A stretch of 64,000 nucleotides of DNA, taken from Alphaproteobacteria bacterium (lineage in GTDB: Bacteria; Pseudomonadota; Alphaproteobacteria; SHVV01). This document shows, piece after piece, positions 25,261 through 49,813 of this stretch. The first letter of the stretch is position 1. Each line of letters starts with the position of its first letter. The stretch covers positions 608,001-672,000 of the forward strand of contig OZ253470.1 in the NCBI GenBank assembly GCA_965261735.1. The letters run 5' to 3'. Under the pieces are notes generated by a model that was given only the letters and a program-made list of their open reading frames with translations, did no database searches and was not told where the DNA came from. The position numbers and the translations under genes were made by a program.

Positions 25261-25724
25261 CGCAGCATCCGAGACCCCACAGATCGGAATGGCCTTTATC
25301 CACCGACCCGAAAATCCAAGAAACCCGCCGGCGTCAAAATCGGAATATCGTTAAACGGAGACATCTCCAGGAGGTCCCGATCGCCCGTAACCAGACAATC
25401 CGCTTCTCCCATCAGCGCCGTCTCGAGCAGCTTGTCATCATCCGGATCGCGACATCCGAGCTTCGCGCCAGCGATCGAAACCCATTCCGAGACCGCTTCG
25501 AGTTGAGCCAGATAAACCGCTCTGACTTCCCGGCCAACGTATCGGTCGAACTTCGGGCGATGGAAACGGCTTCGAAGCTCCTCGAACGTCTCGTCGGAAA
25601 ACAGCAGCACACCGTTCGCCGACCGCACCGCATCCACAACCGATGGGGTGGACGCCCCTCCCGACGGCATCGCGATGTGCCAGGTTGGCGGTGTTGTTAA
25701 CGCCAAGCGAGGAAGGGGGCGTCC

Positions 25725-26747
25725 ATGGAACAGGTTCACATGATCGGGATCGATCTGGCGAAGAACAGCTTTCAGCTGCACGGTGCGCGGGCGGATGGGT
25801 CGGTTGCGTTCCGCAAGAAGCTGAGCCGGGCGAAGCTGTTGGACTTTGTGGCTGCGCAGCCACGCTGCACGGTGGCGATGGAGGCGTGCGGCGGCGCGCA
25901 CCATTGGGGCCGGGAGATCGGCAGTCTCGGCCATGCGGTGCGACTGGTCCCACCGATCTACGTCAAAGCGTACGTCAAGCGGCAAAAGAACGACGCGTCG
26001 GATGCGGAGGCGATCTGCGAGGCGTCGTCGCGGCCGACCATGCGCTTTGTGGCTGTGAAGACGGAGGAACAGCAGGCTCGGGGCATGCTGTTCCGGACGC
26101 GCGATCTTCTGGTGCGCCAGCGCACCCAGACGATTAATGCGCTGCGCGGCCATCTAGCGGAGTTCGGTGTCATTGCCCCGCAGGGGCCGGCTCATGTCGG
26201 CCGGCTGGCCTCGGCGCTTGGGGGACCGGCTTCGAGGTTGCCGGAAGCGGTCCGCGAGCTGGCCGGCCTTCTGCTTGAGCAGATCGCCGGCCTCGATGCG
26301 AAGATTGCGGGCCTGGAGAGGGAGGTCCACGTGAGAGCACGGCAGGATGAGGAGGCGAGGCGCCTGATGAGCGTGCCGGGGATCGGGCCGATCAGCGCGA
26401 TGGCAATCCAGGCCTTCGCACCGCCGATGGAGAGTTTCCGGCGCGGCCGCGACTTCTCCGCTTGGCTCGGCCTCGTGCCGCGCCAGCACACGACCGGCGG
26501 CAAGCCGAAGCTGGGCAAGATATCGAAGATGGGCCAGCGCGATCTGAGACGGCTGCTGATCACAGGCGCGATGACTGTGGTCCGCTGGGCGGTTCGGCGC
26601 GGCGTGACGACGGACCCCTGGCTGGCCGGGATGCTGGCGCGCAAGCCGAGGATGCTCGTCGCGGTGGCGCTGGCCAACAGGATGGCGCGCATCGTCTGGG
26701 TGCTACTGACGAAGAAGAAGAGCTACCGGGCTCCCGCCACCGCCTGA
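25725..26747 (+). CDS. IS110 recombinase (DEDD)
   Basis: IGIDLAK, MEAC, KNDASDAEAI, WLGLVPRQHTTGGK, VAVALANR. Confidence 0.95.
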   Translation: MEQVHMIGIDLAKNSFQLHGARADGSVAFRKKLSRAKLLDFVAAQPRCTVAMEACGGAHHWGREIGSLGHAVRLVPPIYVKAYVKRQKNDASDAEAICEASSRPTMRFVAVKTEEQQARGMLFRTRDLLVRQRTQTINALRGHLAEFGVIAPQGPAHVGRLASALGGPASRLPEAVRELAGLLLEQIAGLDAKIAGLEREVHVRARQDEEARRLMSVPGIGPISAMAIQAFAPPMESFRRGRDFSAWLGLVPRQHTTGGKPKLGKISKMGQRDLRRLLITGAMTVVRWAVRRGVTTDPWLAGMLARKPRMLVAVALANRMARIVWVLLTKKKSYRAPATA

Positions 26748-27014
26748 GAGAACGGCGAAGTGCGGGAAGCCGTCGGGGATGTGGGCAGGACGGAGGACAG
26801 GTAAGGGCAAAGGTCAACGAGACCGGGTTGGGAAAACCAGCATCCGAACGGAGAGCTTTCAAGCTCGCGTAACCGATTTGGACCCAATCCGCGTATCTCC
26901 ATACGGGCCCGCGGCGTGTCATCTGCCGCATAGAGAGGCCGGACACACGACAGCACCTGACCGCATGCACCGAGCCGACCAAAAACTGCTTGCATCAACG
27001 GGGGCGTCCACACA
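26748..27014 (+). ncRNA. Putative bridge/seekRNA region of IS110 copy 1
   Basis: Segments matching target (CCGAACGG 26844-26851; GTAACCG 26869-26875) and donor junction (CTCCAT 26897-26902; ACACACGA 26943-26950) flank two hairpins. Confidence 0.75.
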
Positions 27015-27081
27015 CGTTCGGGGCGGCCCGTCCAGGCGAAACACCGCGCTGATCAGGACATTGGTGTCAAGAACAACGCGC

Positions 27082-27333
27082 TCAGCTTTCATCCGCCAGA
27101 AGCGTCTCCAGCCCAGCCGCCGTCAAGCCGTTCGCAGAGGCTTCCTCACCCAAGGCGTCCATCGTCATTGTCAGACGCTCCCAGGCGGCGCCGCGAAGCC
27201 GCTCATAGTGTTGCATCGACATCATCACGCCGACCGCCCTGCCATTCTTGGTCACGTGCACGGGCGCGCTCTGCGCTGCATCGAGCAAGTAGCCGAAGCG
27301 GTTCTTGGCGTCCCTGGCGGCAATCTTTCTCAT
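27082..27333 (-). CDS. Phd/YefM antitoxin
   Basis: MRKIAARDAKNRFGYLLDAAQSAPVHVTKNGRAVGVMMS; overlaps the toxin start. Confidence 0.9.
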   Translation of the reverse strand: MRKIAARDAKNRFGYLLDAAQSAPVHVTKNGRAVGVMMSMQHYERLRGAAWERLTMTMDALGEEASANGLTAAGLETLLADES

Positions 27334-27336
27334 AAG

Positions 27337-27369
27337 AGCCATAATAGCTAACATGGCTTCATTTTACAA
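27337..27369 (-). promoter_or_regulatory. TA promoter with palindromic operator
   Basis: Minus strand TTGTAA-N17-TATTAT ending 7 nt before the ATG (leaderless-like); palindrome AGCCAT-N10-ATGGCT at 27337-27358. Confidence 0.65.
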
Positions 27370-27469
27370 TTGCACCTACATCCCAGCTTCGCGCCGGATA
27401 TCCTCGGTAGCAACGTTGTCAGAGTAAATCGGCCTGAAACACATGGCGAGGTCTCTTAGCCTTCAAGAA

Positions 27470-27600
27470 AGCATTATCAAGTAAACTGATTGTGGGCGGT
27501 TTTCGGCATTTCTCCATGAGGCTAAGCCATTGAAATTGCATAGAGCAGCCATCGAAAATCACCGAGATTTCGGAGTGAACCCGGTTAACTTGACAAAGCC
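27470..27600 (+). repeat. 131-bp MITE-like element, copy 1
   Basis: ~20-bp terminal IRs; diverged inverted copy at 42452-42582. Confidence 0.8.
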
Positions 27601-27610
27601 GTATTTCTAT

Positions 27611-28027
27611 TTAGCCCTCGCCGCCTCCACCGCCTCCGAAGCCGCCAGCCGCGTCGCTGCCGATCCCGTCGTAGCTGCCGCCCACGCCCCCGCCATGCGC
27701 GATCAGCGCGTAATCGCTCGCCGCGGCCCCTAGGACAAAGCCGCTCAACAGGGTCATGTCGGCGGCGTGCACCATGCGGCGCTGGCGCAAGATTCGTTCG
27801 GCGCGTTCGACCTCTTTCGGATCGTCGGACAGTTTCGCCGCTTCCGCCGCCGCCAACTCATGGAGCAACCGCTGGTACTTTCGCCATAGCCGATGAATGC
27901 GCCAGCCAGTGAAGACAATGACAGCCGCAATAGCCAGCCCGAGCGCCAACTGACCGGCGTCGAGCCGCACGATAAAAAACCAAGCCAGAATTGTTAACAC
28001 TGCCCCATCGATCAAACGACGTAGCAT
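27611..28027 (-). CDS. Hypothetical membrane protein with Gly-rich tail
   Basis: Two N-terminal TM helices; GAGGAGG RBS. Confidence 0.55.
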   Translation of the reverse strand: MLRRLIDGAVLTILAWFFIVRLDAGQLALGLAIAAVIVFTGWRIHRLWRKYQRLLHELAAAEAAKLSDDPKEVERAERILRQRRMVHAADMTLLSGFVLGAAASDYALIAHGGGVGGSYDGIGSDAAGGFGGGGGGEG

Positions 28028-28145
28028 GCATCCCTCCTCGCGTTGGTTGCTCTATCCAACATTTTCCAGACAGCCTCCAATTTGCAGCCAATCGTAGGTA
28101 AATCCTGCCACCGATGGAAAAGTTTTTCCCTTCGGCCCTCCGGCA

Positions 28146-28340
28146 GTGGTGTTAACCGATCTTGTCCAGGCGCACGTGTGGCTGAGCCTCGCCGCGGAAC
28201 GGGCCAGCAACGATACGAAACCGCTCGCCAAGCAGGCGATCGATGGCATCGAGCCGCTGTTGACGCCCGAGCAGCTCGACCAGGCGCGCCGCCGCGCGAG
28301 CCCCAATCCGTGGTTGAAGGTGCCGAGCTCTGGGGACTGA
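28146..28340 (+). pseudogene. Sel1-repeat protein C-terminal fragment
   Basis: DLVQAHVWLSLAA...LTPEQLDQARRRA. Confidence 0.5.
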
Positions 28341-28387
28341 AGCACTTCGACGGCAGGCGTCGTCCGCCGCGTGTTCGCCCGGCGCTC

Positions 28388-29223
28388 CTACTCCAGCCGC
28401 TCGCGTTCCAGAATCCGCCACCTCGAGAGCCTGGTCTCGGCGAACTGCACGAGCTGCGTCATCAACACGCCGACGAGGCCGATCACGAGAATCGGCACGA
28501 ACAGCTTGGCGGTAGCGAAGACGTTCGCGTACTTGATAATCAGGCCGCCGAGCCCGGTGATGGCGGTGAAGAACTCGGCCACGACCATGCCAATAATGGC
28601 AAGGCCGACCGACAGCCGGACTCCGGCCATGATGAAAGGCACCGCCGCCGGTAGCGTGATCTTGAAGAAGATCTCTCGTTCGGAGGCGCCGAAGGCCTTG
28701 CCGATCTCTAGGAAGGATCCGCGGACGTCTTTAATGCCGGCGTAGGTATTGATCATAACCGGGAAGATGGCGATCGAGACGAGGATCGTTACTTTTCCCG
28801 TCGTCTCCAGCCCCGCCCACAGGATCACAAGCGGAACGAGAGCGATACGCGGGATGGCATACAGCGCATTGATGAACGGATCGAGCGTGTACTCGAAAAA
28901 CCACCATTGACCGATCATCACGCCGATGATGATGCCGCCGACGATAGAGATGAACATGCCGAGGAAGAACGGAAACATGCTGGCGGCGAAGCCCTCGACG
29001 AGGTCGCCGTTGAGCAGAATCTCCCAAAACGCCGCGAAAATGGCGCTGGGGGGGGCCATGAACAGCGGGTTCGCCTGCCGGCCCGCGTACTCCCAGAAGA
29101 TGAAGAAGATGGCGACCGAGACCGTTCGGATCAGATTCGGCCTATCGCGCAAGTAAGCGATGATAGCTGAGGCCGTGCTCCGCCCTTGTTTGGCGGGGGT
29201 GACGAGCTTGGTCGTCTCGAGGC

Positions 29224-29227
<4 letters not shown>
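28388..29227 (-). CDS. ABC transporter permease (NitT/TauT family)
   Basis: Multiple TMs, GKAFGASEREIFFKITLPAAVP loop, GMVVAEF. Confidence 0.92.
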
Positions 29228-30057
<830 letters not shown>

Positions 30058-30133
30058 CGCTTCCCGCCGTTCAGGGCTGTACTGGCAATAGGATCGGGCA
30101 AACGCCCGAGTCCCCCCTTTTGACCCGGCTGCG

Positions 30134-30178
30134 TTACTGCAGCGTCTTCATGTGGCTCCATATATCATCGTACATGAG
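30134..30178 (-). pseudogene. C-terminal tip of a second heme-oxygenase-like oxidase
   Basis: LMYDDIWSHMKTLQ* matches LMYDDMYRLVKAIQ* of the gene at 33159-33857. Confidence 0.65.
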
Positions 30179-31172
30179 TAACGCCCATGACCGCTACATG
30201 TAGGGTGCCGCCACTCTCCCGAGTAAAGCTCGGCATAGGTTGGAGCAGAGGTGTCGCCCGCGATGCCGAGCAATGAGCGGAAGGCGTTGAACGGGTAGAA
30301 CCGCCTGTTGAAGCGGAAGGTGAACTCGTTGAGGTAGGCTTGTAGGTGCTGGTGGCTAACGCCGTGGTGGATACCGATCAGCCACGTCTTCAGGTTGGCG
30401 AAAACCAGATGGATGATCGGCAGGTATTGCTCGGCAACCTCTGGATCACCACACTCGGCAACAGCGAAGTGCTCATAGCCGCGCTTACCGAGGCCAGCAT
30501 AGCCGCTCCAATCGTCAGTAACGATCAGCGATCCCGGCGCGACGGTGCTCTCGACGAACCCACAGAGCGACTCGGCGCTACGGTCGAGCACGACGGCGAG
30601 CCGAACGCGTCCGGCATAGCGTCCGTCTTTCCGGTTGTCGAGCTTGGTGCCCGGCTTTCGATGACGCACCTCGATGGCACAGGAGACGGGAACCTTGTGG
30701 TGAACACCACGGCCTTCCCCACGCGTTCGCCCGCCAACCCAGGTTTCGTCCATCTCAACATGGTTCTTGGGCTGTCCACCGATCCTGTCTTGGTTGGGCC
30801 GCACCATGCCCGAGCGGAGCTTGTGGAGAATTTGAAAGGCCGTCTCGTAGCGCGAAAGACCAAGTTGCCGCTGAAACTGCACGGCGGACATGCCGGGCGT
30901 CTGACTGGCGACCAGATAAGCGGCCCAGAACCAGACGTTCAGCGGAGTGTGGCTACGCTCCATCACTGTTCCCACCGTCAGCCCGGTGTTCTGGCGGCAC
31001 TTGCGGCAGCGCAGGACGCCAGGGCGGTTTTCAAAGTGGAACGGCTCTCCCGCCGTGCCGCAGTGCGGGCAGGCAAAGCCGTCTCCCCCAGCGGGCTTTC
31101 TCCAGGTAGGCGGCGCAGGCCGCATCATCGGGGAAAAGTCGCTGGAACTCGGGTAGCGAATGCGGGAATGGG
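30179..31172 (-). mobile_element. IS1595-family element copy A, both ends missing, frameshifted
   Basis: Near-identical to the other copies; CPHC zinc ribbon, DETWVGG, TDDW, YLNEFTFRFNRR; no TIRs. Confidence 0.88.
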
Positions 31173-31322
31173 AACCACAACTACCATGGCCGGCTCTACA
31201 TCTCCTGTCCCGACCCGAAGTGGCGGGCCCGCATCGCGGAGGTGTGTTACGAGGAAGGCACCGGCCGCCTCCACGCGGGCGGCATCTCGCACAACGAGCT
31301 CTATCTGCGCTACGGCGAGGCT
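31173..31322 (+). pseudogene. Inverted internal fragment of a second heme-oxygenase-like oxidase
   Basis: NHNYHGRLYISCPDPKWRARIAEVCYEEGTGRLHAGGISHNELYLRYGEA, paralogous to 33159-33857. Confidence 0.85.
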
Positions 31323-31324
31323 CG

Positions 31325-32259
31325 GTGTAGTTGCGAAAGTCGGCACCCTCGTCGACGAAACGCCGGCCTTCGGCGTTGACCATGATGCCGAAGGGATAGC
31401 TGTGTTTCTGAAAGCCGTCGCCGACCGCAAGATCGCCGAATTCCGGGGCGTTCATGTCCCACCCTACCGAATGGCAGCCCGACCAGTTGCCGTAGGGCAT
31501 GGCCCCGGCCTCGAGCGCCATGCGCAGGCCGTCTCCGGTGTTGAACCGCGTCCCGCGTACCCGGGCGAGCTCCCAGCCGGGGCCGAGATAGCGTGTGCGC
31601 CATTCGGTGTTGGCCTCGAAGCCGCCGCACGACAGAACCACCGCCTTGGCCTCGAGGTCCTGGGTCGTGCTCTCGCTGCGCAGGCGCACGCCGTGGACGC
31701 CGCCATCGTTGCACAGCAGGGCCTGCGCCCGTCCTTCATACAAGATGCGAATGCCGCGCTTTTCAGCCTGCGCGTAGAGGGCCTCGATGAGCCCCGGGCC
31801 GCCACCCCACGCCTCGACGGTGAGGCCGCCCCAGAACTTGAAGCGACCGTCCACCTTGAACGCCTGGCGCCCATACATCGGCGCGAATCGCACGCCGTTT
31901 GCGCGCATCCATTTCAGGGTCGAGAGACTTCGCGTGACCAGCAGTTCGGTGAGATCGGGATCGCACCGGAATTGCGTCACCCTCGACATGTCGTCGTAAT
32001 ACTGGTCGCTGGTGTAGGCGCCGAAGTCCGAGTTCTTCTGCTCCTCCTCGGAGAGATCGGGCATCAGCGCGAGCAGGTCCTCCACCCCCTCGTAGACGAC
32101 CCGCATCGCGCCGGCGGTGAACCGGCTGTTACCGCCGCGCTCCTCTTCCGGCGCGCGCTCCAGCACAACCACCTCGGCGCCATGCTCGCGCGCAGCCAGG
32201 GCCGCGCAGAGGGCGGCGTTGCCGCCGCCAATGACCACGACGTCGCAGGCTTGAGACAT
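31325..32259 (-). pseudogene. FAD-dependent oxidoreductase, TcuA/CobZ-like, 3'-truncated
   Basis: DVVVIGGGNAALCAA, RGGNSRFT, GGFEAN, RGTRFNTGDG, GRRFVDEGADFRNYT, then a break. Confidence 0.85.
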
Positions 32260-32295
32260 GATGTGCTATGCGCCGGGGCGAGCGGCCGGCAGCGC

Positions 32296-37359: not shown

Positions 37360-38752
37360 AGGTGGTGCGGAGCGACGAGACGTCGGCCGTCTACGAGCGC
37401 AAGGTTCAACCGAGGCCGAAGCTGGGACCGTGGATCGGGGAACTGGACCGTCGTCTGGAGGCCAACGAGAAGAAGCCGCGCCGGGATCGTCTGTCGATGA
37501 TGCAGATCTACGAGGATCTGGCGTCGCTGGGCTACGCCGGCGGTTACGACGCGGTGCGCCGCTATGCCGGGGCGTGGCGCCGCCGGCGGCGTAGGCCTAT
37601 ATGCCGCTGAGCTTCGATCCCGGCGAGGCCTACCAGTTCGACTGGAGCCAGGAATACGCGATCCTGTCGGGCACGACGAGCACGGTCAAGGCGGCGCACA
37701 TGCGGCTCTGCTACAGCCGCATGCAGCTGGTTCAGCTCTTCCCGCGCGAGAGCCAGGAGATGGTGTTCGAGGCGCACGAGCGTGCCTTCCGCTTCTTCGG
37801 CGGGGTCTGCCGGCGGGGGCATCTACGACAACATGAAGACGGCGGTGAGCACGGTGTTCGTCGGCAAGGAGCGTGCCTACAACCGCCGCTTCCAGGAGAT
37901 GTGTTCGCACCATCTGGGGGAGCCGGGGGCGTGCACCCCGGTGGCGGCATGGGAGAAGGGCCAGGTCGAGAAGCAAGTGGGTGACGTCCGCGGCCGCCTG
38001 TTCGTGCCCCGGCCGCGGGGCCGCTCCTACGCCGAGTTCAACGCGTGCCTGATGGATTGGTGCATCGAGGATGCCAAGAAGCGGCCGCATCCGACGATCA
38101 AGGGCAAGACGGTGTGGCAGGTGTTCGAGGAAGAACAGCCTTTCCTGATGGCGTATCGAGGGGGCCGTTCGACGGTTTCCATGCGGTCGAGGCGGCGGTC
38201 TCGAAGGCCTTCCTGGTGCGCTTCGACAACAACCAGTACAGCGTCGCGGCGTGCACCGTCGGACGGCCGGTCGACGTGCGGGCCTATGCCGAGAGGATCG
38301 TCATCCGCCAGGACGGCGAGACCGTCGCCGAGCACCCCCGGCGCTTCGCGCGCGGCGAGATCGCCTACGATCCCTCGCACTATGTGCCGATCCTGGCGCG
38401 AAATCCCGGCGCGCTGAGGAACGGCGCGCCCTTCAAGGACTGGCAGCTGCCCGGTGCGCTCGGCCGCATGCGGGCCCGGCTGTCGGACCGCGACGACGGC
38501 GACCGGCAGATCGTCAAGGTGTTCACGGCGGTGCAGGAGGACGGCCTGGAGGCGGTCGAGGCGGCTTGCGCCGAAGCCCTCGCCCATGGCGCCTGCAGCG
38601 CCGATGTCGTGCTCAACATCCTCGCCCGGCAGCGCCAGCCGGCGCCGGCGGCGGCGATCCCGACCCCGGAAGGCCTGCAGCTCCGCCACTTGCCGACGGT
38701 CGACTGCCGCCGCTACGACCGCCTGAGGGAGGCCGACCATGGAGCGTCATGA
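37360..38752 (+). pseudogene. istA: IstA transposase with several frameshifts
   Basis: PLSFDPGEAYQFDW, IYDNMKTAV, WEKGQVE, LARNPGALRNGAPF spread over several frames. Confidence 0.85.
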
Positions 38753-39470
38753 AGTGCTGGCGATGATGACCGCGCTGAAGCTCGCAGGCATGCGCGCCGC
38801 CTATGACGACATCCTCGCCGACGGGATCAAGCGCCGTCATCCGGTGCACCGGATCGTCGGCGCACTGCTGCAGGCCGAGATCGCCGACAAGACGGCGCGC
38901 TCGATCAAATACCAGATGATGAGCGACAAGCTGCCGATGGCCAAGGAACTGGCCGACCTCGACTTCTCCGCCTCCCCGGTCAACGAACCCCTGATCCGCA
39001 ACCTGGCGGCCGGCGGATTCCTCGAAGGCAAGCGCAACCTCGTGCTGGTCAGCGGCACCGGCACCGGCAAGACCCATCTCGCCGTCGCCATCATGCGCGC
39101 CTGCATCCGAAACGGCGCCCGCGGCCGCTGCCACAACTTCGTCGAGCTGGTCAACCTCCTCGAGGCCGAACTCCGGTCCGGCCGTCAGGGTCGCACCGCC
39201 GATGTAGCACACCCGGCGCGACTTCTCATCCTGCTCGACGAACTCGGCTACCTGCCCTTCGCCCAGGCCGGCGGCCAGCTGCTGTTCCACCTGATGAGCC
39301 GGCTCTACGAGCGCACCTCGATCATCGTCACCTCCAACCTCGTCTTCGGCGAATGGCCCTCCGTCTTTGGCGACCCCAAGATGACCACGGCGCTGCTCGA
39401 CCGCCTGACCCATCATTGCGAGATCGTCGAAACCGGCAACGAAAGCTGGCGCTTCAAGCACCGCTCGTAA
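38739..39470 (+). CDS. istB: IS21 ATPase IstB
   Basis: [29 protein letters not shown]. Confidence 0.88.
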
Positions 39471-39574
39471 TCCGGCGCCGACCGAGCCTGCGGCCCGGTT
39501 GACCCGGTGGGTCAACAGGCACCCCCCCCTGTGGACTACCAGGATAACCTCCATCCAGCCTCCTGAAGGGGTCA

Positions 39575-39846
39575 TCTGTGGACGCCTCCGTTGATGCAAG
39601 CATTTCTTTGAACGTCTTGGGGCATGTGGTCAGGTGCGGTCATCTGTCCGGCCTCATGATGCGGCTGGTTTGACGCCGCAGGCCCCTATGGAGATGTGCA
39701 GACCGGGTCCAAGATCAATTTTGCGGGCTTGAAAGCCCCTTGACCCACCGCTGGTTTTCCCGATCCCGTCTCGATTGACCGTTTGCCCTTACTCGTCCTC
39801 CGACCTGCTCACACCCCCGACGTCATTCCGCGAGGCTGCCGCCGTG
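39575..39846 (-). ncRNA. Putative bridge/seekRNA region of the variant IS110
   Basis: RNA-strand GGGTCAA (39746-39740) and CAAAATTGA (39723-39715) match its target; ACAGATGA (39647-39640) and CTCCAT (39693-39688) match its donor junction. Confidence 0.78.
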
Positions 39847-40875
39847 TCAGGCAGCAGCCGGCGCGAAACCTCGGTAGGTCTCCTTGCGTGTCATGAGCGC
39901 CCAGACGATGCGCGCCATCTTGTTGGCCAGCGCCACCGCGACAAGCATTCGCGGCTTGCGCGCCAGCATCCTGGCCAGCCAGGGGTCGTTCGTTTCGCCG
40001 CGACGAACCGCCGAGCTGACGACAGCCATGGCGCCGATGATCAAGAGGCGCCTCAGATCGCGTTGGCCCATCTTCGATATCCTGCCCAGCCGTGGCTTGC
40101 CGCCGGTCGTGTGCTGTCGCGGCACGAGGCCCAGCCAGGCAGAGAAGTCGCGGCCGCGCCGAAAGCTCTCCATCGGCGGCGCGAAGGCCTGAAGCGCCAT
40201 CGCGTTGATCGGCCCGATCCCTGGGATGGTCATGAGCCGTGCCGCCTGCTCGTCCTGACGCGCGCAGGCGCGGAGCTCCTTTTCCAATCCGCCGATCTTC
40301 GCATCGAGGTCAGCGATCTGACCGAGCAGAACGCCACCCAGCGCGCGGACCGCTCCCGGTAGTCCCGAACCCGGATCCTCGAGTGCCGATGCCAGCCGAC
40401 CGACATGAGCCGGTCCCTGCGGCGCGATGACGCCGAACTCTGCCAGGTGGCCACGTAGCGCGTTGATCGTCTGCGTGCGCTGGCGCACCAGAAGATCGCG
40501 CGTGTGGAACAGCATCGCTCTTGCCTGTTGCTCTTCCCCCTTCACCGCCACGAAGCGCATGGTCGGGCGCTGCGCCGCCTCGCAGATCGCCTCCGCGTCC
40601 GCCGCGTCGTTCTTCTGCCGCTTCACGAACGGCTTCACGTAGATCGGTGGGACCAACCTCACTTCGTGGCCGAGCTTCAAAATCTCCCGGCCCCAGTAGT
40701 GGGCGCTCGCACAGGCCTCCATCGCCACCACGCATCGCTGCTGCGCGCCGAGAATGTACAGCAGCCTCTCCCGGCTCACCTTCCTGCGGAACGCGACCGA
40801 ACCGTCCGCCCGAGCACCGTGAAGTTGAAAGCTGCGCTTCGCCAGATCGATCCCGATGATGTTAACCTGTTCCAT
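39847..40875 (-). CDS. IS110 recombinase
   Basis: MEQVNIIGIDLAK, KNDAADAEAI, WLGLVPRQHTTGGK. Confidence 0.95.
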   Translation of the reverse strand: MEQVNIIGIDLAKRSFQLHGARADGSVAFRRKVSRERLLYILGAQQRCVVAMEACASAHYWGREILKLGHEVRLVPPIYVKPFVKRQKNDAADAEAICEAAQRPTMRFVAVKGEEQQARAMLFHTRDLLVRQRTQTINALRGHLAEFGVIAPQGPAHVGRLASALEDPGSGLPGAVRALGGVLLGQIADLDAKIGGLEKELRACARQDEQAARLMTIPGIGPINAMALQAFAPPMESFRRGRDFSAWLGLVPRQHTTGGKPRLGRISKMGQRDLRRLLIIGAMAVVSSAVRRGETNDPWLARMLARKPRMLVAVALANKMARIVWALMTRKETYRGFAPAAA

Positions 40876-40963
40876 GGACGCCTCCTCCTCCGGGGGTTGG
40901 TCACGCCACCACCTTGGCACACTGCGATGCCGTCGGGAGGAGGCGTCCACTCCATCAATTTTG

Positions 40964-41146
40964 GGGTCTGTCGCCGTCTCGATGATGTCAGCGGTTTATG
41001 GACGCCAGATGCCGGCGAACGGAGGCCAGATCGACAATCTGAGGGCCTTCCAGCGCCAGACTTTTGGGATGTGCCGATCTGGATGTGCTCAGAATCCGCC
41101 TCGTCGTGCTGTCCGAAGCCACCATCATCGAGATTGAGTCAGACCC
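40964..41146. mobile_element. 183-bp MITE
   Basis: TIRs GGGTCTG-N6-TCTCGATGATG at both ends; TSD AATTTTG at 40957-40963 and 41147-41153. Confidence 0.85.
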
Positions 41147-41167
41147 AATTTTGAACGCTGATTGACA

Positions 41168-41742
41168 CCCTCGCACCCGCGCATCAGGTCCTCTCGCGCG
41201 AAGCCATTGTCGCCGCGCAGCAGGATGTCGACGTTGGGCCATCGTTCGCCGATCATCCGGACGATGCGGCGGATCTGGTTGCGCGCGCCCCTGGCGCCCT
41301 CGATGTTGGCGGGTCGGAGCTGGGCGAGCAGGAGATGGCGGCCGCAGAAGACGTAGAGCGGCAGGAAGCAGCGGTGTTCGTAATAGCCGTGGAAGAAGGC
41401 GTTCTCCTGGCGCCCATGGGTCTCCACGTCGGTGGCGTCGACATCGAGGGTGATGCGCGCGGGCGGCGTCTGGTGGGCGTCGAGAAACAGGGTGCCGAAC
41501 AGGTTGGAGAGTTTCTTGAGGTTGGCAGAGATCTGATGGTACCGGCGATCGCCGGTGTCCCAGGCGTGCTCGATGCGGTTCAGCGTCGATTTGCCGGCCA
41601 ACGCCGGCGGGCCTTTACCGGTGGCCGGCGTCGGCTCGCCGCCGCAATCGGCGAGGAGCTTGCACGCCGGATCGTGGCGCAAGGCGTCGTGATCGTTGAT
41701 GTTTTCATAGCCCAGGGCGATGCCCGCGACCCGCTGGGCCTT
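41168..41742 (-). pseudogene. IS1380-family transposase internal fragment
   Basis: GYENINDHDALRHDP, LDVDATD..THGRQE..FFHGYY, LLRGDNGF. Confidence 0.85.
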
Positions 41743-42347
41743 GCAGAGCGACTCAGCGACGAAGCATTCGATGGATTTCTGGAAAAGTTGAAAACATTCC
41801 CGATACAGCACTCGCAGCGTCGAAATACGAGGACACCTTATCGGCAGCTGATAAGTGGAGCGACGTGTTCGAACACTTCTTTCCAATGCCCGACGAAGAA
41901 GGTCTTCAAGAAGTCGTTATAGGTTCCGCGCAACTTCCCGTGCCGGCATTCATACCTGAGGTGGACGTTCATGCGGTTGTAAAAGAAAATGCGCACCAAT
42001 ACTGGAAAGGCAGGAACAAAATAGGCCCGATTCCAAAGAATTTCGAGATTAGTTTTCGAATTGCCAATTCCGCGTTGCTCCCCGCTAACTCAACAATCAA
42101 ATGGATGGTCAGAAACGAAGGCGATGAGGCTGAGGCAATCAACGATCTTGGCCACAAGGCGGGAATTATGCTCACTGCCTCCGAACGTTCCGCCTATAGA
42201 GGTACCCACTACATGGACTGTGTTGTCCGTCAATATGGAGTTGTAATTGGAGTGCGTCGAATTCCGGTTTCAATTTCTGCAGCGGCTATGCCGAGGCGCA
42301 ATCCCGCAAGTCATCCTGCTTGGGTTCGACATCGTGGCAAAAAATGA
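41743..42347 (+). pseudogene. C-terminal remnant of a CBASS-type CD-NTase with AGS-C domain
   Basis: IKWMVRNEGDEAE..NDLGH...ERSAYRGTHYMDC resembles AGS-C; preceded by a helical ..AADKWSDVFEHFFP segment; lower GC. Confidence 0.65.
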
Positions 42348-42451
42348 TTCCCACGCCCTGCTACCCTTGCGACGCATTTATGGAACCACCCGTGCCTCAG
42401 TCAGTTTCGTAGTGTCCACTAAACGATGGTGGACATCATCGACCTCTGGAC

Positions 42452-42582: not shown

Positions 42583-42592
42583 CACCCAGCGC

Positions 42593-42904
42593 CTATTCCT
42601 CACACGGGTAGACATTCGACAGCAGGAGCATGAAGGCCTTGTTGGACGCCTGTTGCTCAGCCACATGCGGGTGCCGCGATATGTAGGCCTTGATGTCCCG
42701 CTGGATTTTCTTTGGATCCACCGGCTCATCGACGCATACGACGGTGTCGACCTTGTAGACATCCCGCGCCGTGCTCTGGTGTCCTTGAATGAACCCCGAG
42801 AAGTATACCGGTGCGGAACTCAGGGCCACGAACTCCCCGATGGTCTGGGCATGGGCTGTGCAAGTCCATGCTACGAAAGCCGCAATCAGAGCAAGAAACT
42901 TCAT
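42593..42904 (-). CDS. Small secreted hypothetical protein (Rap1a/HdeA-like pattern)
   Basis: Signal peptide ending AHA, YISRHP...LSNVYPC; GGGAGG RBS. Confidence 0.55.
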   Translation of the reverse strand: MKFLALIAAFVAWTCTAHAQTIGEFVALSSAPVYFSGFIQGHQSTARDVYKVDTVVCVDEPVDPKKIQRDIKAYISRHPHVAEQQASNKAFMLLLSNVYPCEE

Positions 42905-43071
42905 ACTTCCCTCCCGGCTGTCTTGAAATAGAGGGCGGCCGTGCTGATCGGGATCCGCCTAGCTATGTTGACCAACGGAATTGGTGCGATTCCGGATGCT
43001 GGTTTTCCGACGCTGCTTAGCGGACCGCAGATATCACGTGTCACCCCTCAGAACATCCCGACAAATCCAGC

Positions 43072-45384: not shown

Positions 45385-46342
45385 GCCGCGCGGTTGACTG
45401 GGCCGGCGCCCTCTCTCCTCGACCTCATGAGCAATGGCGCGCCCTCACGGCATCGAACGCGGCGAGAGACGCCATTTTGAGTGCCGGATTCTAATCTGGA
45501 GGCTCTCAACCGAACGGCAAACGGCCGATGCGGTGCCTGGTGGAAGGAACGTTCGGATCGGGACAGCCCTCAACACGCCGCACGATCTTGACAACCAGTG
45601 TTGTATGTTCATTTCTTGCCTATCCGGTTAACGCCCATGACCGCTACATGTAGGGTGCCGCCACTCTCCCGAGTAAAGCTCGGCATAGGTTGGAGCAGAG
45701 GTGTCGCCCGCGATGCCGAGCAATGAGCGGAAGGCGTTGAACGGGTAGAACCGCCTGTTGAAGCGGAAGGTGAACTCGTTGAGGTAGGCTTGTAGGTGCT
45801 GGTGGCTAACGCCGTGGTGGATACCGATCAGCCACGTCTTCAGGTTGGCGAAAACCAGATGGATGATCGGCAGGTATTGCTCGGCAACCTCTGGATCACC
45901 ACACTCGGCAACAGCGAAGTGCTCATAGCCGCGCTTCCCGAGGCCAGCATAGCCGCTCCAATCGTCAGTAACGATCAGCGATCGCGGCGCGACGGTGCTC
46001 TCGACGAACCCACAGAGCGACTCGGCGCTACGGTCGAGCACGACGGCGAGCCGAACGCGTCCGGCATAGCGTCCGTCTTTCCGGTTGTCGAGCTTGGTGC
46101 CCGGCTTTCGATGACGCACCTCGATGGCACAGGAGACGGGAACCTTGTGGTGAACACCACGGCCTTCCCCACGCGTTCGCCCGCCAACCCAGGTTTCGTC
46201 CACCTCAACATGGTTCTTGGGCTGTCCACCGATCCTGTCTTGGTTGGGCCGCACCATGCCCGAGCGGAGCTTGTGGAGAATTTGAAAGGCCGTCTCGTAG
46301 CGCGAAAGACCAAGTTGCCGCTGAAACTGCACGGCGGACATG

Positions 46343-47736
46343 GGTTGTGTCTCGAAAGTGGTGGAAATTGGTTTTGGCGCCTCTCCGAGCGGGTTGAGTT
46401 TTGCGGCGGTCAGGCTGCGCGGTCAAGGGTTTCGTCGGCGATTAGCTGATCGAGGGTTTCCCATCCATTGACTTTGCGCATCTGGATTTGGCCGGAAGCG
46501 AGGAGTGCCCAGAGGAGCATCGGCACTGTTTCGGGACACGGCAGCACGGTCTGTGTTTTGATCCGGCGCTTGAACTCCTCGTTGAGACGCTCAATGGCGT
46601 TGGTCGTTCGGGCTGATTTCCATTGGCTCTTGGACAGGCGCGTGAAGGTAAAGAGCTTGTCGCCCGCTTCTGCGAGGCTGTCCGCGACGGCCCTGCATTT
46701 CAGCCGCCACTTGCGGACAAACGCCTTGCGGCGGGTTTCCACCTCGGAGGCAGTGTCAGCATAGATCATATCGCGGTAATCTTCGCTCAGCTCGTCATGC
46801 ATGTGTTTGGGAGCATGACCCAGAAGGTTGCGGTGCTTGTGCACGGTGCAGCGTTGAACGGGAAGGTCATCGCCCCAAAGCGCCGACAGAGCCGCCTCCA
46901 GTCCCGGCGCGCCATCGACGATGACAAACCCGGGCCGTTTCAGTCCACGCGCATCAAGGTCGTCGAGGAACTGGCGCCACGCCGCCTGGCTTTCTCCGCC
47001 CATATTCCCGATCGAAAGCAAGACCTTCTGGCCATCCCGGCGCACCCCTATAGCCGCGAGAACCGAGATGTTGGTGGCCTTGCGGTCCAGTCGGGTCTTG
47101 ATCACAGTGCCGTCAAGGATCAGCCGAACGATATCCTCATCCGCGAGGCCACGGCTGCACCAGGCGTCCCAATCGACCTTCACCTTGCGCCACGCCCGGC
47201 TCACAACGTCCTTGCTCACAGCACCCCGGAAGAGCCCGAACAGCGCGCGTTTCACCCGCCGCGTGTTGGTTCCGGACAGATACACCGAAGCGATCAGCGC
47301 CTCGGCCTTTCTGGTCAGCCGCTGGTAGCGCGGCAGCGCCCGCGAACGCCATTCCGACGCCCGACCGTCTTCCTCAACGATCCGCGCACGCGGCACGCTC
47401 ACCCTCTCGGTCCCGAATGTCCCCGTCAGTTGCCGCTCCCGGTGCCCGTTCCGATACCCTTGCCGAAGCGCGTCCTCTCGACCGTATCGGCAGCGCCCGA
47501 GAAACTGCGCAAGTTCCTCCTCAAAAACGGCCTCGATCGTGGATCTGATGTTCTCCCGCAGCCGGTCCTCGATCGGATCATAGCCGGCGTCATTGGCCAG
47601 TAGCGAAAGCGCGGAAGTCTCGGTAGTGTTCTTCATGGCGTGATCTCCTTGGCGGTGCTAGCCGCCGATTGGGTGGTTGTCTTGTCACCCGGAGATTACG
47701 CCATCCTCAAATTTCCACCACTTTCGAGACACAGCC
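46343..47736 (-). mobile_element. IS256-family element copy 1
   Basis: TIRs GG(T/C)TGTGTCTCGAAAGTGGTGGAAATT; TSD CGGACATG. Confidence 0.95.
46410..47636 (-). CDS. IS256 transposase
   Basis: YRNGHRER, LILDG, VIVDGAPGL, QRCTVH, RTTNAIERLNEEFKRR. Confidence 0.95.
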   Translation of the reverse strand: MKNTTETSALSLLANDAGYDPIEDRLRENIRSTIEAVFEEELAQFLGRCRYGREDALRQGYRNGHRERQLTGTFGTERVSVPRARIVEEDGRASEWRSRALPRYQRLTRKAEALIASVYLSGTNTRRVKRALFGLFRGAVSKDVVSRAWRKVKVDWDAWCSRGLADEDIVRLILDGTVIKTRLDRKATNISVLAAIGVRRDGQKVLLSIGNMGGESQAAWRQFLDDLDARGLKRPGFVIVDGAPGLEAALSALWGDDLPVQRCTVHKHRNLLGHAPKHMHDELSEDYRDMIYADTASEVETRRKAFVRKWRLKCRAVADSLAEAGDKLFTFTRLSKSQWKSARTTNAIERLNEEFKRRIKTQTVLPCPETVPMLLWALLASGQIQMRKVNGWETLDQLIADETLDRAA

Positions 47737-48122
47737 CGGACATGCCGGGCGTCTGACTGGCGACCAGATAAGCGGCCCAGAACCAGACGTTCAGCGGAGT
47801 GTGGCTACGCTCCATCACTGTTCCCACCGTCAGCCCGGTGTTCTTGGCGGCACTTGCGGCAGCGCAGGACGCCAGGGCGGTTTTCAAAGTGGAACGGCTC
47901 TCCCGCCGTGCCGCAGTGCGGGCAGGCAAAGCCGTCTCCCCAGCGGGCTTTCTCCAGGTAGGCGGCGCAGGCCGCATCATCGGGGAAAAGTCGCTGGAAC
48001 TCGGGTAGCGAATGCGGGAATGGGAGATCGGCGCGGTCGAGAACATCCATGGCGCGCTCCCCTATATCCGGGTTGCGCCCATTCTAGCCCTAGTGGGTGT
48101 GGGTGTAAACCGGATAAGCAAG

Positions 48123-48137
48123 GTTCATTTTATGTTC
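48123..48137 (+). promoter_or_regulatory. Alphaproteobacterial LexA (SOS) box
   Basis: GTTC-ATTTTAT-GTTC upstream of a umuD-like remnant. Confidence 0.75.
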
Positions 48138-48361
48138 GTATAAACACTGAGGGTCGCCTCCTTGCAGCGTTTCACAGATCAGCCCACCGAACTCGCCCTG
48201 CCGCTCTACGGCTCCAGGGTACCCGCCGGATGTATCTGTTCGGCGAAGCTGTGGAATCGGCCGGCCCGCGGGAGAAGTGGGCGATCACAGCCGCCTCGTT
48301 TGTTGAAACAGCGCTCATTCCCTGCCTCCCCCCATTCGGACGTCCACGGTTTGAACGAACG

Positions 48362-48628
48362 TGTGTGGACGCCCCCGTTGATGCAAGCAGTTTTTGGTCG
48401 GCTCGGTGCATGCGGTCAGGTGCTGTCGTGTGTCCGGCCTCTCTATGCGGCAGATGACACGCCGCGGGCCCGTATGGAGATACGCGGATTGGGTCCAAAT
48501 CGGTTACGCGAGCTTGAAAGCTCTCCGTTCGGATGCTGGTTTTCCCAACCCGGTCTCGTTGACCTTTGCCCTTACCTGTCCTCCGTCCTGCCCACATCCC
48601 CGACGGCTTCCCGCACTTCGCCGTTCTC
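48362..48628 (-). ncRNA. Putative bridge/seekRNA region of IS110 copy 2
   Basis: Same sequence as 26748-27014. Confidence 0.75.
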
Positions 48629-49651
48629 TCAGGCGGTGGCGGGAGCCCGGTAGCTCTCCTTCTTCGTCAGTAGCGCCCAGACGATGCGCGCCATCCTGTT
48701 GGCCAGCGCCACCGCGACGAGCATCCTCGGCTTGCGCGCCAGCATCCCGGCCAGCCAGGGGTCCGTCGTCACGCCGCGCCGAACCGCCCAGCGGACCACA
48801 GTCATCGCGCCTGTGATCAGCAGCCGTCTCAGATCGCGCTGGCCCATCTTCGATATCTTGCCCAGCTTCGGCTTGCCGCCGGTCGTGTGCTGACGCGGCA
48901 CGAGGCCGAGCCAAGCGGAGAAGTCGCGGCCGCGCCGGAAACTCTCCATCGGCGGTGCGAAGGCCTGGATTGCCATCGCGCTGATCGGCCCGATCCCCGG
49001 CACGCTCATCAGGCGCCTCGCCTCCTCATCCTGCCGTGCTCTCACGTGGACCTCCCTCTCCAGGCCCGCAATCTTCGCATCGAGGCCGGCGATCTGCTCA
49101 AGCAGAAGGCCGGCCAGCTCGCGGACCGCTTCCGGCAACCTCGAAGCCGGTCCCCCAAGCGCCGAGGCCAGCCGGCCGACATGAGCCGGCCCCTGCGGGG
49201 CAATGACACCGAACTCCGCCAGATGGCCGCGCAGCGCATTAATCGTCTGGGTGCGCTGGCGCACCAGAAGATCGCGCGTCCGGAACAGCATGCCCCGAGC
49301 CTGCTGTTCCTCCGTCTTCACAGCCACAAAGCGCATGGTCGGCCGCGACGACGCCTCGCAGATCGCCTCCGCATCCGACGCGTCGTTCTTTTGCCGCTTG
49401 ACGTACGCTTTGACGTAGATCGGTGGGACCAGTCGCACCGCATGGCCGAGACTGCCGATCTCCCGGCCCCAATGGTGCGCGCCGCCGCACGCCTCCATCG
49501 CCACCGTGCAGCGTGGCTGCGCAGCCACAAAGTCCAACAGCTTCGCCCGGCTCAGCTTCTTGCGGAACGCAACCGACCCATCCGCCCGCGCACCGTGCAG
49601 CTGAAAGCTGTTCTTCGCCAGATCGATCCCGATCATGTGAACCTGTTCCAT
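48629..49651 (-). CDS. IS110 recombinase
   Basis: Near-identical to 25725-26747. Confidence 0.95.
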   Translation of the reverse strand: MEQVHMIGIDLAKNSFQLHGARADGSVAFRKKLSRAKLLDFVAAQPRCTVAMEACGGAHHWGREIGSLGHAVRLVPPIYVKAYVKRQKNDASDAEAICEASSRPTMRFVAVKTEEQQARGMLFRTRDLLVRQRTQTINALRGHLAEFGVIAPQGPAHVGRLASALGGPASRLPEAVRELAGLLLEQIAGLDAKIAGLEREVHVRARQDEEARRLMSVPGIGPISAMAIQAFAPPMESFRRGRDFSAWLGLVPRQHTTGGKPKLGKISKMGQRDLRRLLITGAMTVVRWAVRRGVTTDPWLAGMLARKPRMLVAVALANRMARIVWALLTKKESYRAPATA

Positions 49652-49813
49652 GGACGCCCCCTTCCTCGCTTGGCGTTAACAACACCGCCAACCTGGCACA
49701 TCGCGATGCCGTCGGGAGGGGCGTCCACCCCATCGGTTGCCGCCGGATTTCCAAGCCCCGCCGACGACCATATCGAGGGCAAGCTTGATCTCAATCTGCA
49801 TCTGATCCGCCCG

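What the first reader, a model, noticed from the sequence alone, without database searches (positions are those of the whole stretch)
25641..49735. Naturally reprogrammed bridge/seekRNAs: two IS110 variants whose guides co-vary with their targets
Seen: copies at 25641 and 48360 sit in unrelated genes yet share the empty-site sequence CAAC-CG-TTCG. Their 3' non-coding end has CCGAACGG (bottom-strand match) and GTAACCG (top-strand match allowing G:U/G:T wobble) either side of hairpin GAGC-TTTCAA-GCTC, and ACACACGA/CTCCAT matching the donor junction around a GGCC..GGCC stem. The variant at 39573-40957 keeps the scaffold with compensatory changes (GGGC-TTTCAA-GCCC). Its guides are GGGTCAA and CAAAATTGA, exact matches to its own target CAAAAT-TG-ACCC, and its donor guide ACAGATGA matches its own ends and TG core. 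Established: IS110/IS1111 RNA-guided recombination is a known class. What this window adds is a related pair with different cores (CG vs TG) and in-window target validation, i.e. candidate orthogonal programmable recombinases.
Basis: partly seen in the sequence, partly recalled or inferred. Interest (0 to 1): 0.82.

Follow-up and report, generated by a model that had tools for sequence, protein, structure and literature searches.

The report
RNA-guided IS1111-type insertion sequences, several variants
The three repeats are intact IS1111-type (IS110-family) insertion sequences whose 3' non-coding ends carry a guide RNA gene matching each element's own insertion site and own ends: a clear natural example of an already described mechanism, not a new one.

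Summary
A01 (25641-27016, +) and A02 (48360-49735, -) are 99.7% identical. C01 (39573-40957, -) is 81% identical to them. All three encode DEDD_Tnp_IS110 + Transposase_20 recombinases, with 11-12 bp subterminal inverted repeats and a long 3' non-coding region.

That region folds into a conserved two-loop scaffold. 9 of its 23 pairs carry compensatory changes. Its variable segments match the element's own target flanks plus core, and its own ends.

- The genome holds 14 A copies, and all have A at -3 and C at -1 of the left flank.
- A third variant (D, 4 copies) has guides that match its own site exactly.
- Two further variants (E, F) do likewise.
- Across 39 distinct guide pairs from 61 related loci, the longest guide-target match averages 6.9 and 6.7 nt, against 3.2 and 3.3 in mismatched pairings.
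- RNA-library contigs from two studies contain A01's empty site with a single CG.

Caveats: the right arm of type A matches fully at only 6 of 15 junction pairs. "Orthogonal recombinases" is untested. Insertion "in genes" is not shown.

The mechanism was published in 2024 (seekRNA and bridge RNA papers), so these are new members of a known kind.

The parts
25641..27016 (+). Element A01, 1376 bp counting the CG core at both ends
   Evidence: Empty-site contigs join 25640 to 27015, skipping 1374 nt with 2 nt ambiguous, in X1, X3 and X5.
25725..26747 (+). A01 recombinase gene (340 aa): DEDD_Tnp_IS110 + Transposase_20
   Evidence: E 1.9e-15 and 3.7e-22. NF033542 scores 318 bits against a cut-off of 140. 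D10, E53, D90, D93 and the GLxPxQH[TS]TGG motif are invariant in 12 of 12 sequences.
25647..25658 (+). A01 left subterminal inverted repeat (GGTGGACGCCCC)
   Evidence: It is the reverse complement of 27001-27011 over 11 nt.
27001..27011 (+). A01 right subterminal inverted repeat (GGGGCGTCCAC)
26823..26890 (+). A01 target-binding loop domain: closing stem 26823-26831 / 26884-26890, guide 1 at 26844-26851, hairpin 26853-26866, guide 2 at 26869-26877
   Evidence: Helices 1-3 contain 8 pairs with compensatory changes.
26844..26851 (+). A01 guide 1 (CCGAACGG). It is complementary to the top strand of C-CG-TTCGG (right-target-guide-like).
26869..26877 (+). A01 guide 2 (GTAACCGAT). It has the same sense as the top strand GTAAC-CG, so it is complementary to the bottom strand (left-target-guide-like). 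The trailing AT equals the first bases of the left end.
26897..26950 (+). A01 donor-binding domain: CTCCAT 26897-26902, GGCC stem with inner GCGGC hairpin 26906-26940, ACACACGA 26943-26950
48360..49735 (-). Element A02, 4 differences from A01, same guides. ORF 48629-49651. Guide 1 at 48525-48532, hairpin 48510-48523, guide 2 at 48499-48507, donor guide 48426-48433.
39573..40957 (-). Element C01, 1385 bp counting the TG core at both ends. ORF 39847-40875 (342 aa from ATG).
39700..39769 (-). C01 target-binding loop domain: guide 1 GGGTCAA at 39740-39746, hairpin 39725-39738, guide 2 CAAAATTGAT at 39714-39723
39640..39693 (-). C01 donor-binding domain: CTCCAT 39688-39693, stem 39650-39684, ACAGATGA 39640-39647
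62490..62690 (-). Remnant of the 3' non-coding end of a more distant IS1111-type element.
   Evidence: nhmmer hit at genome 670545-670659, which is window 62545-62659. Sequence read.

Best explanation
A01, A02 and C01 are intact insertion sequences of the IS1111 group of the IS110 family.

Each encodes a DEDD/serine-type recombinase of about 340 aa. Downstream of it lies a non-coding RNA gene of about 130-150 nt, called a seekRNA or bridge RNA.

The RNA has two programmable regions on a conserved scaffold:
[quoted passage not shown] - In the second region, CTCCAT pairs with the start of the left end. A 7-8 nt guide copies the last bases of the right end plus the core.

The recombinase-RNA complex brings the excised circular element (right end-core-left end) together with a target that has the same core. 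It recombines them at the core, so one core copy ends up at each junction and there is no other duplication.

Variants differ in guides, core (CG or TG) and terminal bases, all in a coordinated way. That is why sister elements in one genome use different sites.

Shown here: the anatomy, the co-variation of guides with targets and with ends, the conserved structure, the precise empty site, and near-identical multi-copy spread.

Inferred from published work on relatives: that the region acts as RNA bound by the recombinase, and the chemistry of the reaction.
For: Family and anatomy:
- Pfam PF01548 + PF02371 in 3 of 3 proteins.
- NCBIfam 'IS110 family RNA-guided transposase': 318 and 324 bits against a cut-off of 140.
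- PDB sequence hits to ISCro4 (E 7e-13) and IS621 (E 6e-10) recombinases.
- 11-nt subterminal inverted repeats. The non-coding region is 269 nt at the 3' end against 84 nt at the 5' end.
- GL-P----TG motif, as described for IS1111 transposases (PMC11187229, section 6).

Genome-wide test of sites:
- 14 A, 1 C and 4 D full copies.
- All 14 A copies carry identical guides, and 13 of 14 have an intact 340-aa ORF.
- Among 15 type-A junction pairs (14 distinct left flanks): -5 G 13/15, -4 T or C 12/15, -3 A 15/15, -2 A 13/15, -1 C 15/15, +2 T 13/15, +4 G 11/15. The genome is 66% G+C.
- Variant D has guides GTGGTACA and CAAAAATG, which match its site CAAAAA-TG-TACCAC exactly.
- Variants E and F also match their right flanks.

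Family-wide test:
- 39 distinct guide pairs were taken from 61 of 80 related loci plus A, C and D.
- The longest exact match is 7 nt or more in 27 of 39 (left guide) and 23 of 39 (right guide). In mismatched pairings it is 5 of 1430 and 4 of 1430.
- The donor guide equals the last 7 nt of the right end in 33 of 36 rows as counted, across 9 different 7-mers. One further row was a truncation of my own making.

Structure: 23 pairs, 98.5% of cells paired, 9 pairs with compensatory change. 0 of 500 shuffles reach the observed value on four of the five measures and 1 of 500 on the fifth (further pair types). Slid controls give 20-45% paired.

Empty site: contigs in 3 RNA-library runs from 2 studies join 25640 to 27015 with 2 ambiguous nt.

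Published mechanism: PMC11187229 (abstract, sections 6, 9, 13), PMC11208160 (passages of sections 6 and 12), PMC11208158 (passages of section 11).
Against: - No direct evidence that the region is made as a discrete RNA. The RNA-library data are contigs, which show no ends, strand or level, and DNA carry-over cannot be excluded.
- No sigma-70-like promoter was found in 25500-27150.
- Single-sequence folds are not more stable than shuffles (z -0.95 and -0.61).
- No Rfam family matches.
- No circle junction was seen in the four runs laid.
- The right arm of type A is fully matched (TTCG) at only 6 of 15 junction pairs, and 3 copies share a left flank ending GAGC rather than TAAC/CAAC.
- Among the 39 family representatives, the match is 4 nt or less for 4 left guides and 7 right guides.
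- C01 is a single full copy, so its current activity is not shown.
Confidence: 0.9

Rival explanations
1. The guide segments act as DNA rather than RNA. Single-stranded transposon-end DNA would pair with the target, as in IS200/IS605 elements.
For: Nothing here shows a discrete transcript. Contigs from RNA libraries cannot prove transcription, and no promoter-like site was found. Co-variation alone does not tell RNA from DNA.
Against: The guides lie 140-170 nt inside the right end, within a scaffold whose helices show compensatory changes typical of a structured RNA. Relatives with the same layout were shown to need, and to co-purify with, an RNA from this region (PMC11187229, abstract and section 9). 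The protein family model is named 'RNA-guided transposase'.
Confidence: 0.04
2. Site choice is mostly set by the protein or by one arm only. The second arm's complementarity would be a by-product and not needed.
For: Type A right flanks are TTCG at only 6 of 15 junction pairs, while the left arm is nearly invariant. Type E shows the opposite: 9 of 10 right flanks are within one mismatch, while left flanks match 1-5 of 6 positions (read by eye). One-arm ('half-match') recombination has been reported for IS621 (preprint 10.64898/2026.08.31.748434, abstract and section 8).
Against: Both arms co-vary with targets across the family. Right-guide matches of 7 nt or more occur in 23 of 39, against 4 of 1430 in controls. 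Variants C and D match on both arms. Proteins 70-98% identical use quite different sites.
Confidence: 0.05
3. The matches are coincidental or an artefact of mis-set element boundaries, with target bases counted as element.
For: The type A guide 8-mer is not rare in this GC-rich window.
Against: The boundaries are fixed independently by empty-site contigs. CAAAATTGA occurs only at the guide and at the junction, with 0.18 expected. Permuted pairings give means of 3.2 and 3.3 against 6.9 and 6.7 observed.
Confidence: 0.01

Closest known systems
IS1111-family elements with a seekRNA: ISEc11, ISKpn4, ISPa11, ISPst6 (Siddiquee et al. 2024, PMC11187229)
   Same: A DEDD transposase of 330-350 aa with a GL-P----S(t)G motif. 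Subterminal inverted repeats. A long non-coding region downstream of tnp. [quoted passage not shown] Closely related elements choose different sites.
   Different: The sequences differ. Identity of the window's proteins to those named elements was not measured here. The nearest annotated plasmid-borne relatives are 64-69% identical. The targets differ (YAAC-CG-TTCG and CAAAAT-TG-ACCC). No experiment exists for these elements.
IS621 / ISCro4 (IS622) bridge recombinases of the IS110 group (PMC11208160, PMC11208158; PDB 8wt6, 9t56)
   Same: A two-loop RNA that reads target and donor, a shared 2-nt core, and the same protein domains. The acidic residues D10/E53/D90/D93 correspond in order to D11/E60/D102/D105 of IS621 (PMC11208158 section 11 passage).
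   Different: The RNA is in the right end rather than the left end. The order of guides in each loop is reversed. The inverted repeats are long. Sequence similarity is detectable only in the C-terminal part. The donor-binding bases sit around a stem-loop junction rather than in a simple internal loop, as PMC11208160 section 12 notes for many IS1111 elements.
IS4321/IS5075 and other IS1111 members that home into other mobile elements or repeats (cited in PMC11208160 references 10 and 24; only the citations were seen)
   Same: Site-specific insertion into repeated or mobile DNA. Variant D sits in a small repeat. The L002-type relative sits inside a sibling element.
   Different: The targets differ. 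No link to Tn21 ends or attC sites was seen.

Membership tests
IS110 family (DEDD recombinase) | N-terminal DEDD/RuvC-like domain plus C-terminal Transposase_20 domain | tested here: met
   PF01548 and PF02371 score above their cut-offs in 3 of 3 proteins. NF033542 scores 318 and 324 bits against 140.
IS110 family (DEDD recombinase) | Conserved catalytic acidic residues and a Ser/Thr-Gly motif | tested here: met
   D10, E53, D90, D93, T257 and G258 are invariant in 12 of 12 aligned family members. Their catalytic role is inferred from IS621 (PMC11208158 section 11 passage).
IS1111 group | Subterminal inverted repeats of 7-17 bp with short terminal extensions | tested here: met
   An 11-nt perfect repeat GTGGACGCCCC lies 6-7 nt from the left end and 5 nt from the right end in A. 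A 12-nt repeat is present in C.
IS1111 group | The longer non-coding region lies downstream of tnp | tested here: met
   In A, 84 nt upstream against 269 nt downstream.
IS1111 group | GL-P----S(t)G motif and a transposase of 330-350 aa | tested here: met
   GLVPRQHTTG, with proteins of 340 and 342 aa. The criterion comes from PMC11187229 section 6.
seekRNA / bridge RNA system | Guide segments complementary to both strands of the target around a shared core, co-varying with the target across relatives | tested here: met
seekRNA / bridge RNA system | Guide segments matching the element's own ends (donor) | tested here: met
   The 7-nt guide equals the right-end terminus in 33 of 36 rows as counted, across 9 different 7-mers. 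The CCAT part of CTCCAT is invariant, opposite the ATGG with which nearly all left ends begin, so this arm shows little variation with which to test co-variation.
seekRNA / bridge RNA system | Conserved RNA secondary structure | tested here: met
   9 of 23 pairs carry compensatory changes. 0 of 500 shuffles reach the observed value on four of five measures and 1 of 500 on the fifth. Single-sequence stability is not significant.
seekRNA / bridge RNA system | Insertion at the core without further duplication; precise empty site | tested here: met
   For A01 only: the joint 25640 to 27015 skips 1374 of 1376 nt, seen in 3 runs.
seekRNA / bridge RNA system | The RNA is made, binds the recombinase and is needed for transposition | not testable with these tools
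   Only contigs from RNA libraries cover 26675-26962. They give no ends, strand or level.
Rfam RNA families | Match to a curated covariance model | tested here: not met
   0 matches at gathering score over the window. 0 matches at E up to 10 over 26700-27060. This shows only that no curated model matched this RNA.

The most novel reading that the evidence does not exclude
This genome and its relatives may record two things not yet described for IS1111-type elements in nature.

1. Spread through one-arm ('half-match') sites may be routine.
- Type A keeps the left arm plus core at every site, but matches the right arm fully at only 6 of 15.
- 3 of 15 right flanks start with AT, like the element's own left end.
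- Type E shows the mirror image.

2. A sister variant 96% identical in protein to A (L002 type) carries guides aimed at GCAAA-CG-GTCAA. This is a near-invariant stretch just upstream of the guide RNA gene of sibling elements. The variant sits inside such a sibling. Its own lineage (A01, L002, L003) lacks the C of that core through a 1-nt gap, which would make it immune. That would be competition between insertion sequences carried out by re-aiming a guide.
Probability: 0.3. Interest if true: 0.55.

Novelty: new member of a known kind. Interest (0 to 1): 0.3.

Why it matters
The mechanism is established, so the value is as material.

One conserved scaffold with recombinases 66-98% identical carries at least 39 natural guide pairs and two cores. 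Five variants (A, C, D, E, F) share a single genome. Single-base guide and target co-changes occur (CAAAAT to CAATAT).

Such a series shows which scaffold positions tolerate change. It offers ready-made guide sets for testing cross-talk between RNAs and proteins in IS1111-type systems. It also gives a natural record of how faithfully each arm is read.

It does not change what is known about how these elements work.

Tried and rejected
1. Genes at the insertion sites. In a script I joined the flanks of the three sites and looked for frames across the junction. The six fragments gave 0 Pfam hits. In a 66% G+C genome such frames may be spurious, so 'inserted in genes' stays open.

2. Promoter scan of 25500-27150: 0 sigma-70-like sites. 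A conserved GCTTGCAT lies 21 nt from the right end. It could be the -35 of a promoter formed across the circle junction (-10 candidates CACGAT and GATGAT, 3 of 6). This is my reading only and is weak.

3. Single-sequence folding gave no significant stability. The case for structure rests on co-variation.

4. Rfam: nothing.

5. Metagenome contigs searched with the 34-nt type A loop: 0 matches. I did not use the second scan that was allowed.

6. A class-wide pattern search for more L002-type loops found 1 of 401 genomes, the instance already known. The sibling-targeting idea therefore rests on one case.

7. RNA runs.
- Contigs in X1, X2 and X3 (one study) all stop at 26962, but loose ends occur nearby. 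This is at most a weak hint of an RNA end.
- No joint of the circle-junction kind was listed.
- Depth figures were not used.

8. Of the 80 related loci, my end-finding patterns failed on 16, which were not examined. I dropped 3 more (L008, L029, L038) because an end was mis-detected or misaligned.

9. For alignment A2 I gave 36 sequences: 33 of 37 distinct locus tails, leaving out L015, L022, L023 and L077 as near-duplicates, plus A01, C01 and D01. My C01 range was 2 nt short at the right end. This lowers one row.

11. Supplementary files of PMC11187229 and PMC11208160 were not open. They may list related elements or predicted bridge RNAs that bear on whether these particular elements are already catalogued. 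ISfinder is not on hand. I make no claim that they are unpublished.

Full report
**What is there**

A self-comparison of the window shows two copies of a 1376-bp element: A01 at 25641-27016 (+) and A02 at 48360-49735 (-), 99.7% identical. A third element, C01 at 39573-40957 (-), is about 81% identical to them.

Read directly, A01 and A02 begin and end with CG. They lie between ..CAAC and TTCG.., and the flanks beyond those bases are unrelated. C01 begins and ends with TG and lies between ..CAAAAT and ACCC...

Each element has one long ORF with DEDD_Tnp_IS110 and Transposase_20 domains. NCBIfam files the proteins under 'IS110 family RNA-guided transposase', well above the cut-off. Sequence similarity to the solved ISCro4 and IS621 recombinases is detectable in the C-terminal part only.

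The elements have 11-12 nt subterminal inverted repeats. Their short 5' non-coding region is 84 nt and their long 3' one is 269 nt. They carry the GL-P----TG motif. These are the features that define the IS1111 group in PMC11187229 (section 6) and PMC11208160 (section 12 passage).

**The 3' non-coding region**

I aligned 36 tails: A01, C01, the third variant D, and 33 relatives from other genomes. The alignment shows a conserved scaffold with hypervariable segments. RNAalifold predicts these parts:
- a closing stem;
- a large internal loop holding guide 1, a short hairpin and guide 2;
- then CTCCAT, a GGCC stem with an inner hairpin, and a second guide.

On 23 pairs, 98.5% of cells are paired and 9 pairs carry compensatory changes. 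No shuffle of 500 reaches the observed value on four of the five measures, and 1 of 500 does on the fifth (further pair types). Slid controls fall to 20-45% paired.

Single sequences are not unusually stable. No Rfam model matches.

**Do guides match targets?**

In the window:
- Type A's CCGAACGG is the complement of C-CG-TTCGG.
- Type A's GTAACCG has the sense of the left flank plus core. At the two in-window sites this holds with wobble.
- Type C's GGGTCAA and CAAAATTGA match CAAAAT-TG-ACCC exactly.
- CAAAATTGA occurs nowhere else in the 64 kb.
- The type A 8-mer is not rare by itself.

The genome (one 5.03-Mb contig) holds 14 full A copies, one C and four copies of a third variant, D.

All 14 A copies have identical guides, and 13 have an intact ORF. 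I tabulated 15 junction pairs: 13 from this genome and 2 from a relative. They have 14 distinct left flanks.

| Position | Base | Count |
|---|---|---|
| -5 | G | 13/15 |
| -4 | T or C | 12/15 |
| -3 | A | 15/15 |
| -2 | A | 13/15 |
| -1 | C | 15/15 |
| +1 | T | 7/15 |
| +2 | T | 13/15 |
| +3 | C | 7/15 |
| +4 | G | 11/15 |

The left arm therefore follows the guide, in a genome where A is 17%. The right arm is looser, and the full TTCG is present at 6 of 15.

Variant D has guides GTGGTACA and CAAAAATG. It sits at CAAAAA-TG-TACCAC in all four copies. This is a third, independent co-varying case.

A profile scan finds 38 scaffold copies in the genome. They include a 1356-bp variant E with about 10 copies and core TG. 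Its guide is the complement of G-ACAATGCC. Its right flank is ACAATGCC exactly in 5 of 10 copies, has one mismatch in 4 of 10, and is unrelated in 1 of 10. The scan also finds a variant F.

**Family-wide test**

A protein-guided scan of one genome per species returned 80 loci at 66-98% identity. The record titles assign the metagenome-assembled genomes to several phyla. For 61 of these loci, plus A, C and D, I could set both ends. They give 39 distinct guide pairs.

| Measure | Left guide | Right guide |
|---|---|---|
| Mean longest exact match, observed | 6.9 nt | 6.7 nt |
| Mean longest exact match, 1430 mismatched pairings | 3.2 nt | 3.3 nt |
| Matches of 7 nt or more, observed | 27 of 39 | 23 of 39 |
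| Matches of 7 nt or more, mismatched pairings | 5 of 1430 | 4 of 1430 |

Weak cases exist: 4 left guides and 7 right guides match over 4 nt or less.

The donor guide equals the last 7 nt of the right end in 33 of 36 rows, across 9 different 7-mers. One of the three misses comes from my own truncated range. Cores CG and TG change together in both target guides, in the donor guide and at both ends.

**Independent check of the boundaries**

Contigs from three RNA-library runs of two studies join 25640 directly to 27015, with 2 ambiguous bases. That is the unoccupied site with a single CG.

Other contigs in those runs carry the element next to different flanks:
- Two left flanks end GTAAC.
- Two end GTAAG, which fits the relative L003, whose guide reads GTAAGCG.
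- Three right flanks start TTCG.

Because flanks were located by where similarity to A01 stops, this is supportive but not a fair count. Contigs from RNA libraries cover the non-coding region (26675-26962 and others). They cannot show that it is transcribed, nor where an RNA starts or ends.

**Mechanism**

The layout agrees point by point with published IS1111 seekRNAs. The segment complementary to the top strand lies 5' of the one complementary to the bottom strand (PMC11187229 section 9). The donor-binding bases sit around a stem junction (PMC11208160 section 12 passage).

I therefore read these as RNA-guided recombinases. Their RNA pairs with both strands of the target and of the circular donor at a shared 2-nt core. 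The RNA step and the chemistry are inferred from relatives. The rest is shown above.

- 'Orthogonal recombinases' is untested and doubtful, for three reasons. The proteins are 81% identical on a near-identical scaffold. C and D share the same donor guide and ends. And seekRNAs are reported to work with diverged transposases (PMC11187229 section 9).
- 'In unrelated genes' is not shown.
- The surroundings are a stretch dense in insertion sequences beside an integrase gene.

**Novelty**

All of the following are in print:
- natural co-variation of loops with targets and donors;
- bridge RNAs in the right end of IS1111 elements;
- reprogramming.

Sources: PMC11208160 sections 6 and 12 (passages), and PMC11187229 abstract and sections 9 and 13. 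These elements are new members of a known kind.

Two points go a little further:
- The uneven use of the two arms recalls the half-match recombination reported for IS621 (preprint 10.64898/2026.08.31.748434, abstract and section 8).
- A single relative is aimed at its siblings' guide RNA locus.

Noticed in passing
L002 1860-2130; the same place as L098 and L112 (G002:C4, about 1629207-1630592): A relative 96% identical in protein to A is inserted inside a sibling element, at ..GGGCAAA-CG-GTCAATCGAG... This is a near-invariant stretch just upstream of the sibling's guide RNA stem. Its own guides (GCAAACG and the complement of CGGTCAA) match that site over 7 + 7 nt. A01, L002 and L003 themselves read GCAAA-GGTCAA, without the C of the core. 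Only one instance is known: 1 of 401 genomes searched.
   Followed up: partly
genome C1: 439466-440845, 3421879-3423258, 4173237-4174616, 4347336-4348715 (L081 holds the first): Variant D (86% identical to C) has 4 copies. Each sits in the same short repeat, with flank similarity of about 51-55 nt on the left and 81-112 nt on the right. No unoccupied copy of its 14-nt site exists in the genome.
   Followed up: partly
genome C1, e.g. 1965014-1965140, 3148755-3148881, 416920-417046: Variant E: 1356 bp, core TG, about 10 copies. Its right arm is well matched (ACAATGCC) but its left arm only loosely (1-5 of 6 positions). This is the reverse of type A.
   Followed up: partly
genome C1: 1967424-1967557 and 2960524-2960658: Two diverged copies of a variant F differ by one base in guide 1 (..ATGAGACG against ..ACGAGACG). 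Their right flanks differ at the matching base (CG-TCTCAT against CG-TCTCGT). The flanks are themselves homologous, so this could reflect two insertions into paralogous targets or an old duplication.
   Followed up: no
genome C1: 4368702-4370055 and 3228353-3228605; L019, L023: A C-like variant has guide 2 reading CAATAT-TG instead of CAAAAT-TG. Left flanks ending CAATAT are seen at a 5' fragment in this genome and at L019 and L023. This is a single-base co-change of guide and target.
   Followed up: partly
window 62490-62690 (-): Solo remnant of the 3' non-coding end of a more distant IS1111-type element (..GGAGGCGTCCATACAAC..). No recombinase gene lies beside it.
   Followed up: no
window 23625-52831: A stretch dense in mobile elements: a tyrosine integrase (23625-24947), IS1595-type transposases (30148-32259, 45628-46341, 50330-51202), IS21 (38045-39470), a DDE_Tnp_1_4 fragment (41125-41886) and an IS256/Mutator type (46410-47636). 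They lie among ABC transporter genes. The ORF 30148-32259 carries both FAD-binding and IS1595 transposase domains, probably a read-through of an insertion.
   Followed up: partly
window 45611-48129 and 50313-52831: Segments repeated at the same 4702-nt spacing on both sides of A02, at 98-100% identity. This suggests a duplication of about 2.5 kb flanking it.
   Followed up: no
genome C1: 3602209-3603583 (A08); 3617001-3618376 (A07); 3634573-3635948 (A04): A08 has a 1-nt deletion that breaks the ORF. A07 and A08 share both flanks in opposite orientation. A04 shares only their left flank (..GGAGC). This suggests rearrangement among copies within about 35 kb.
   Followed up: no
L001-L080: Recombinases 66-98% identical, on the same RNA scaffold, occur in assemblies labelled Alphaproteobacteria, Binatia, Longimicrobiales/Gemmatimonadetes, Acidobacteria/Vicinamibacterales, Nitrospinota, Chloroflexota and Gammaproteobacteria. 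Several are on contigs of megabase size. This points to transfer across phyla.
   Followed up: no
window 26990-26995, 48381-48386, 39594-39599: GCTTGCAT is nearly invariant, 21 nt from the right end. It may be the -35 box of a promoter completed across the circle junction.
   Followed up: no
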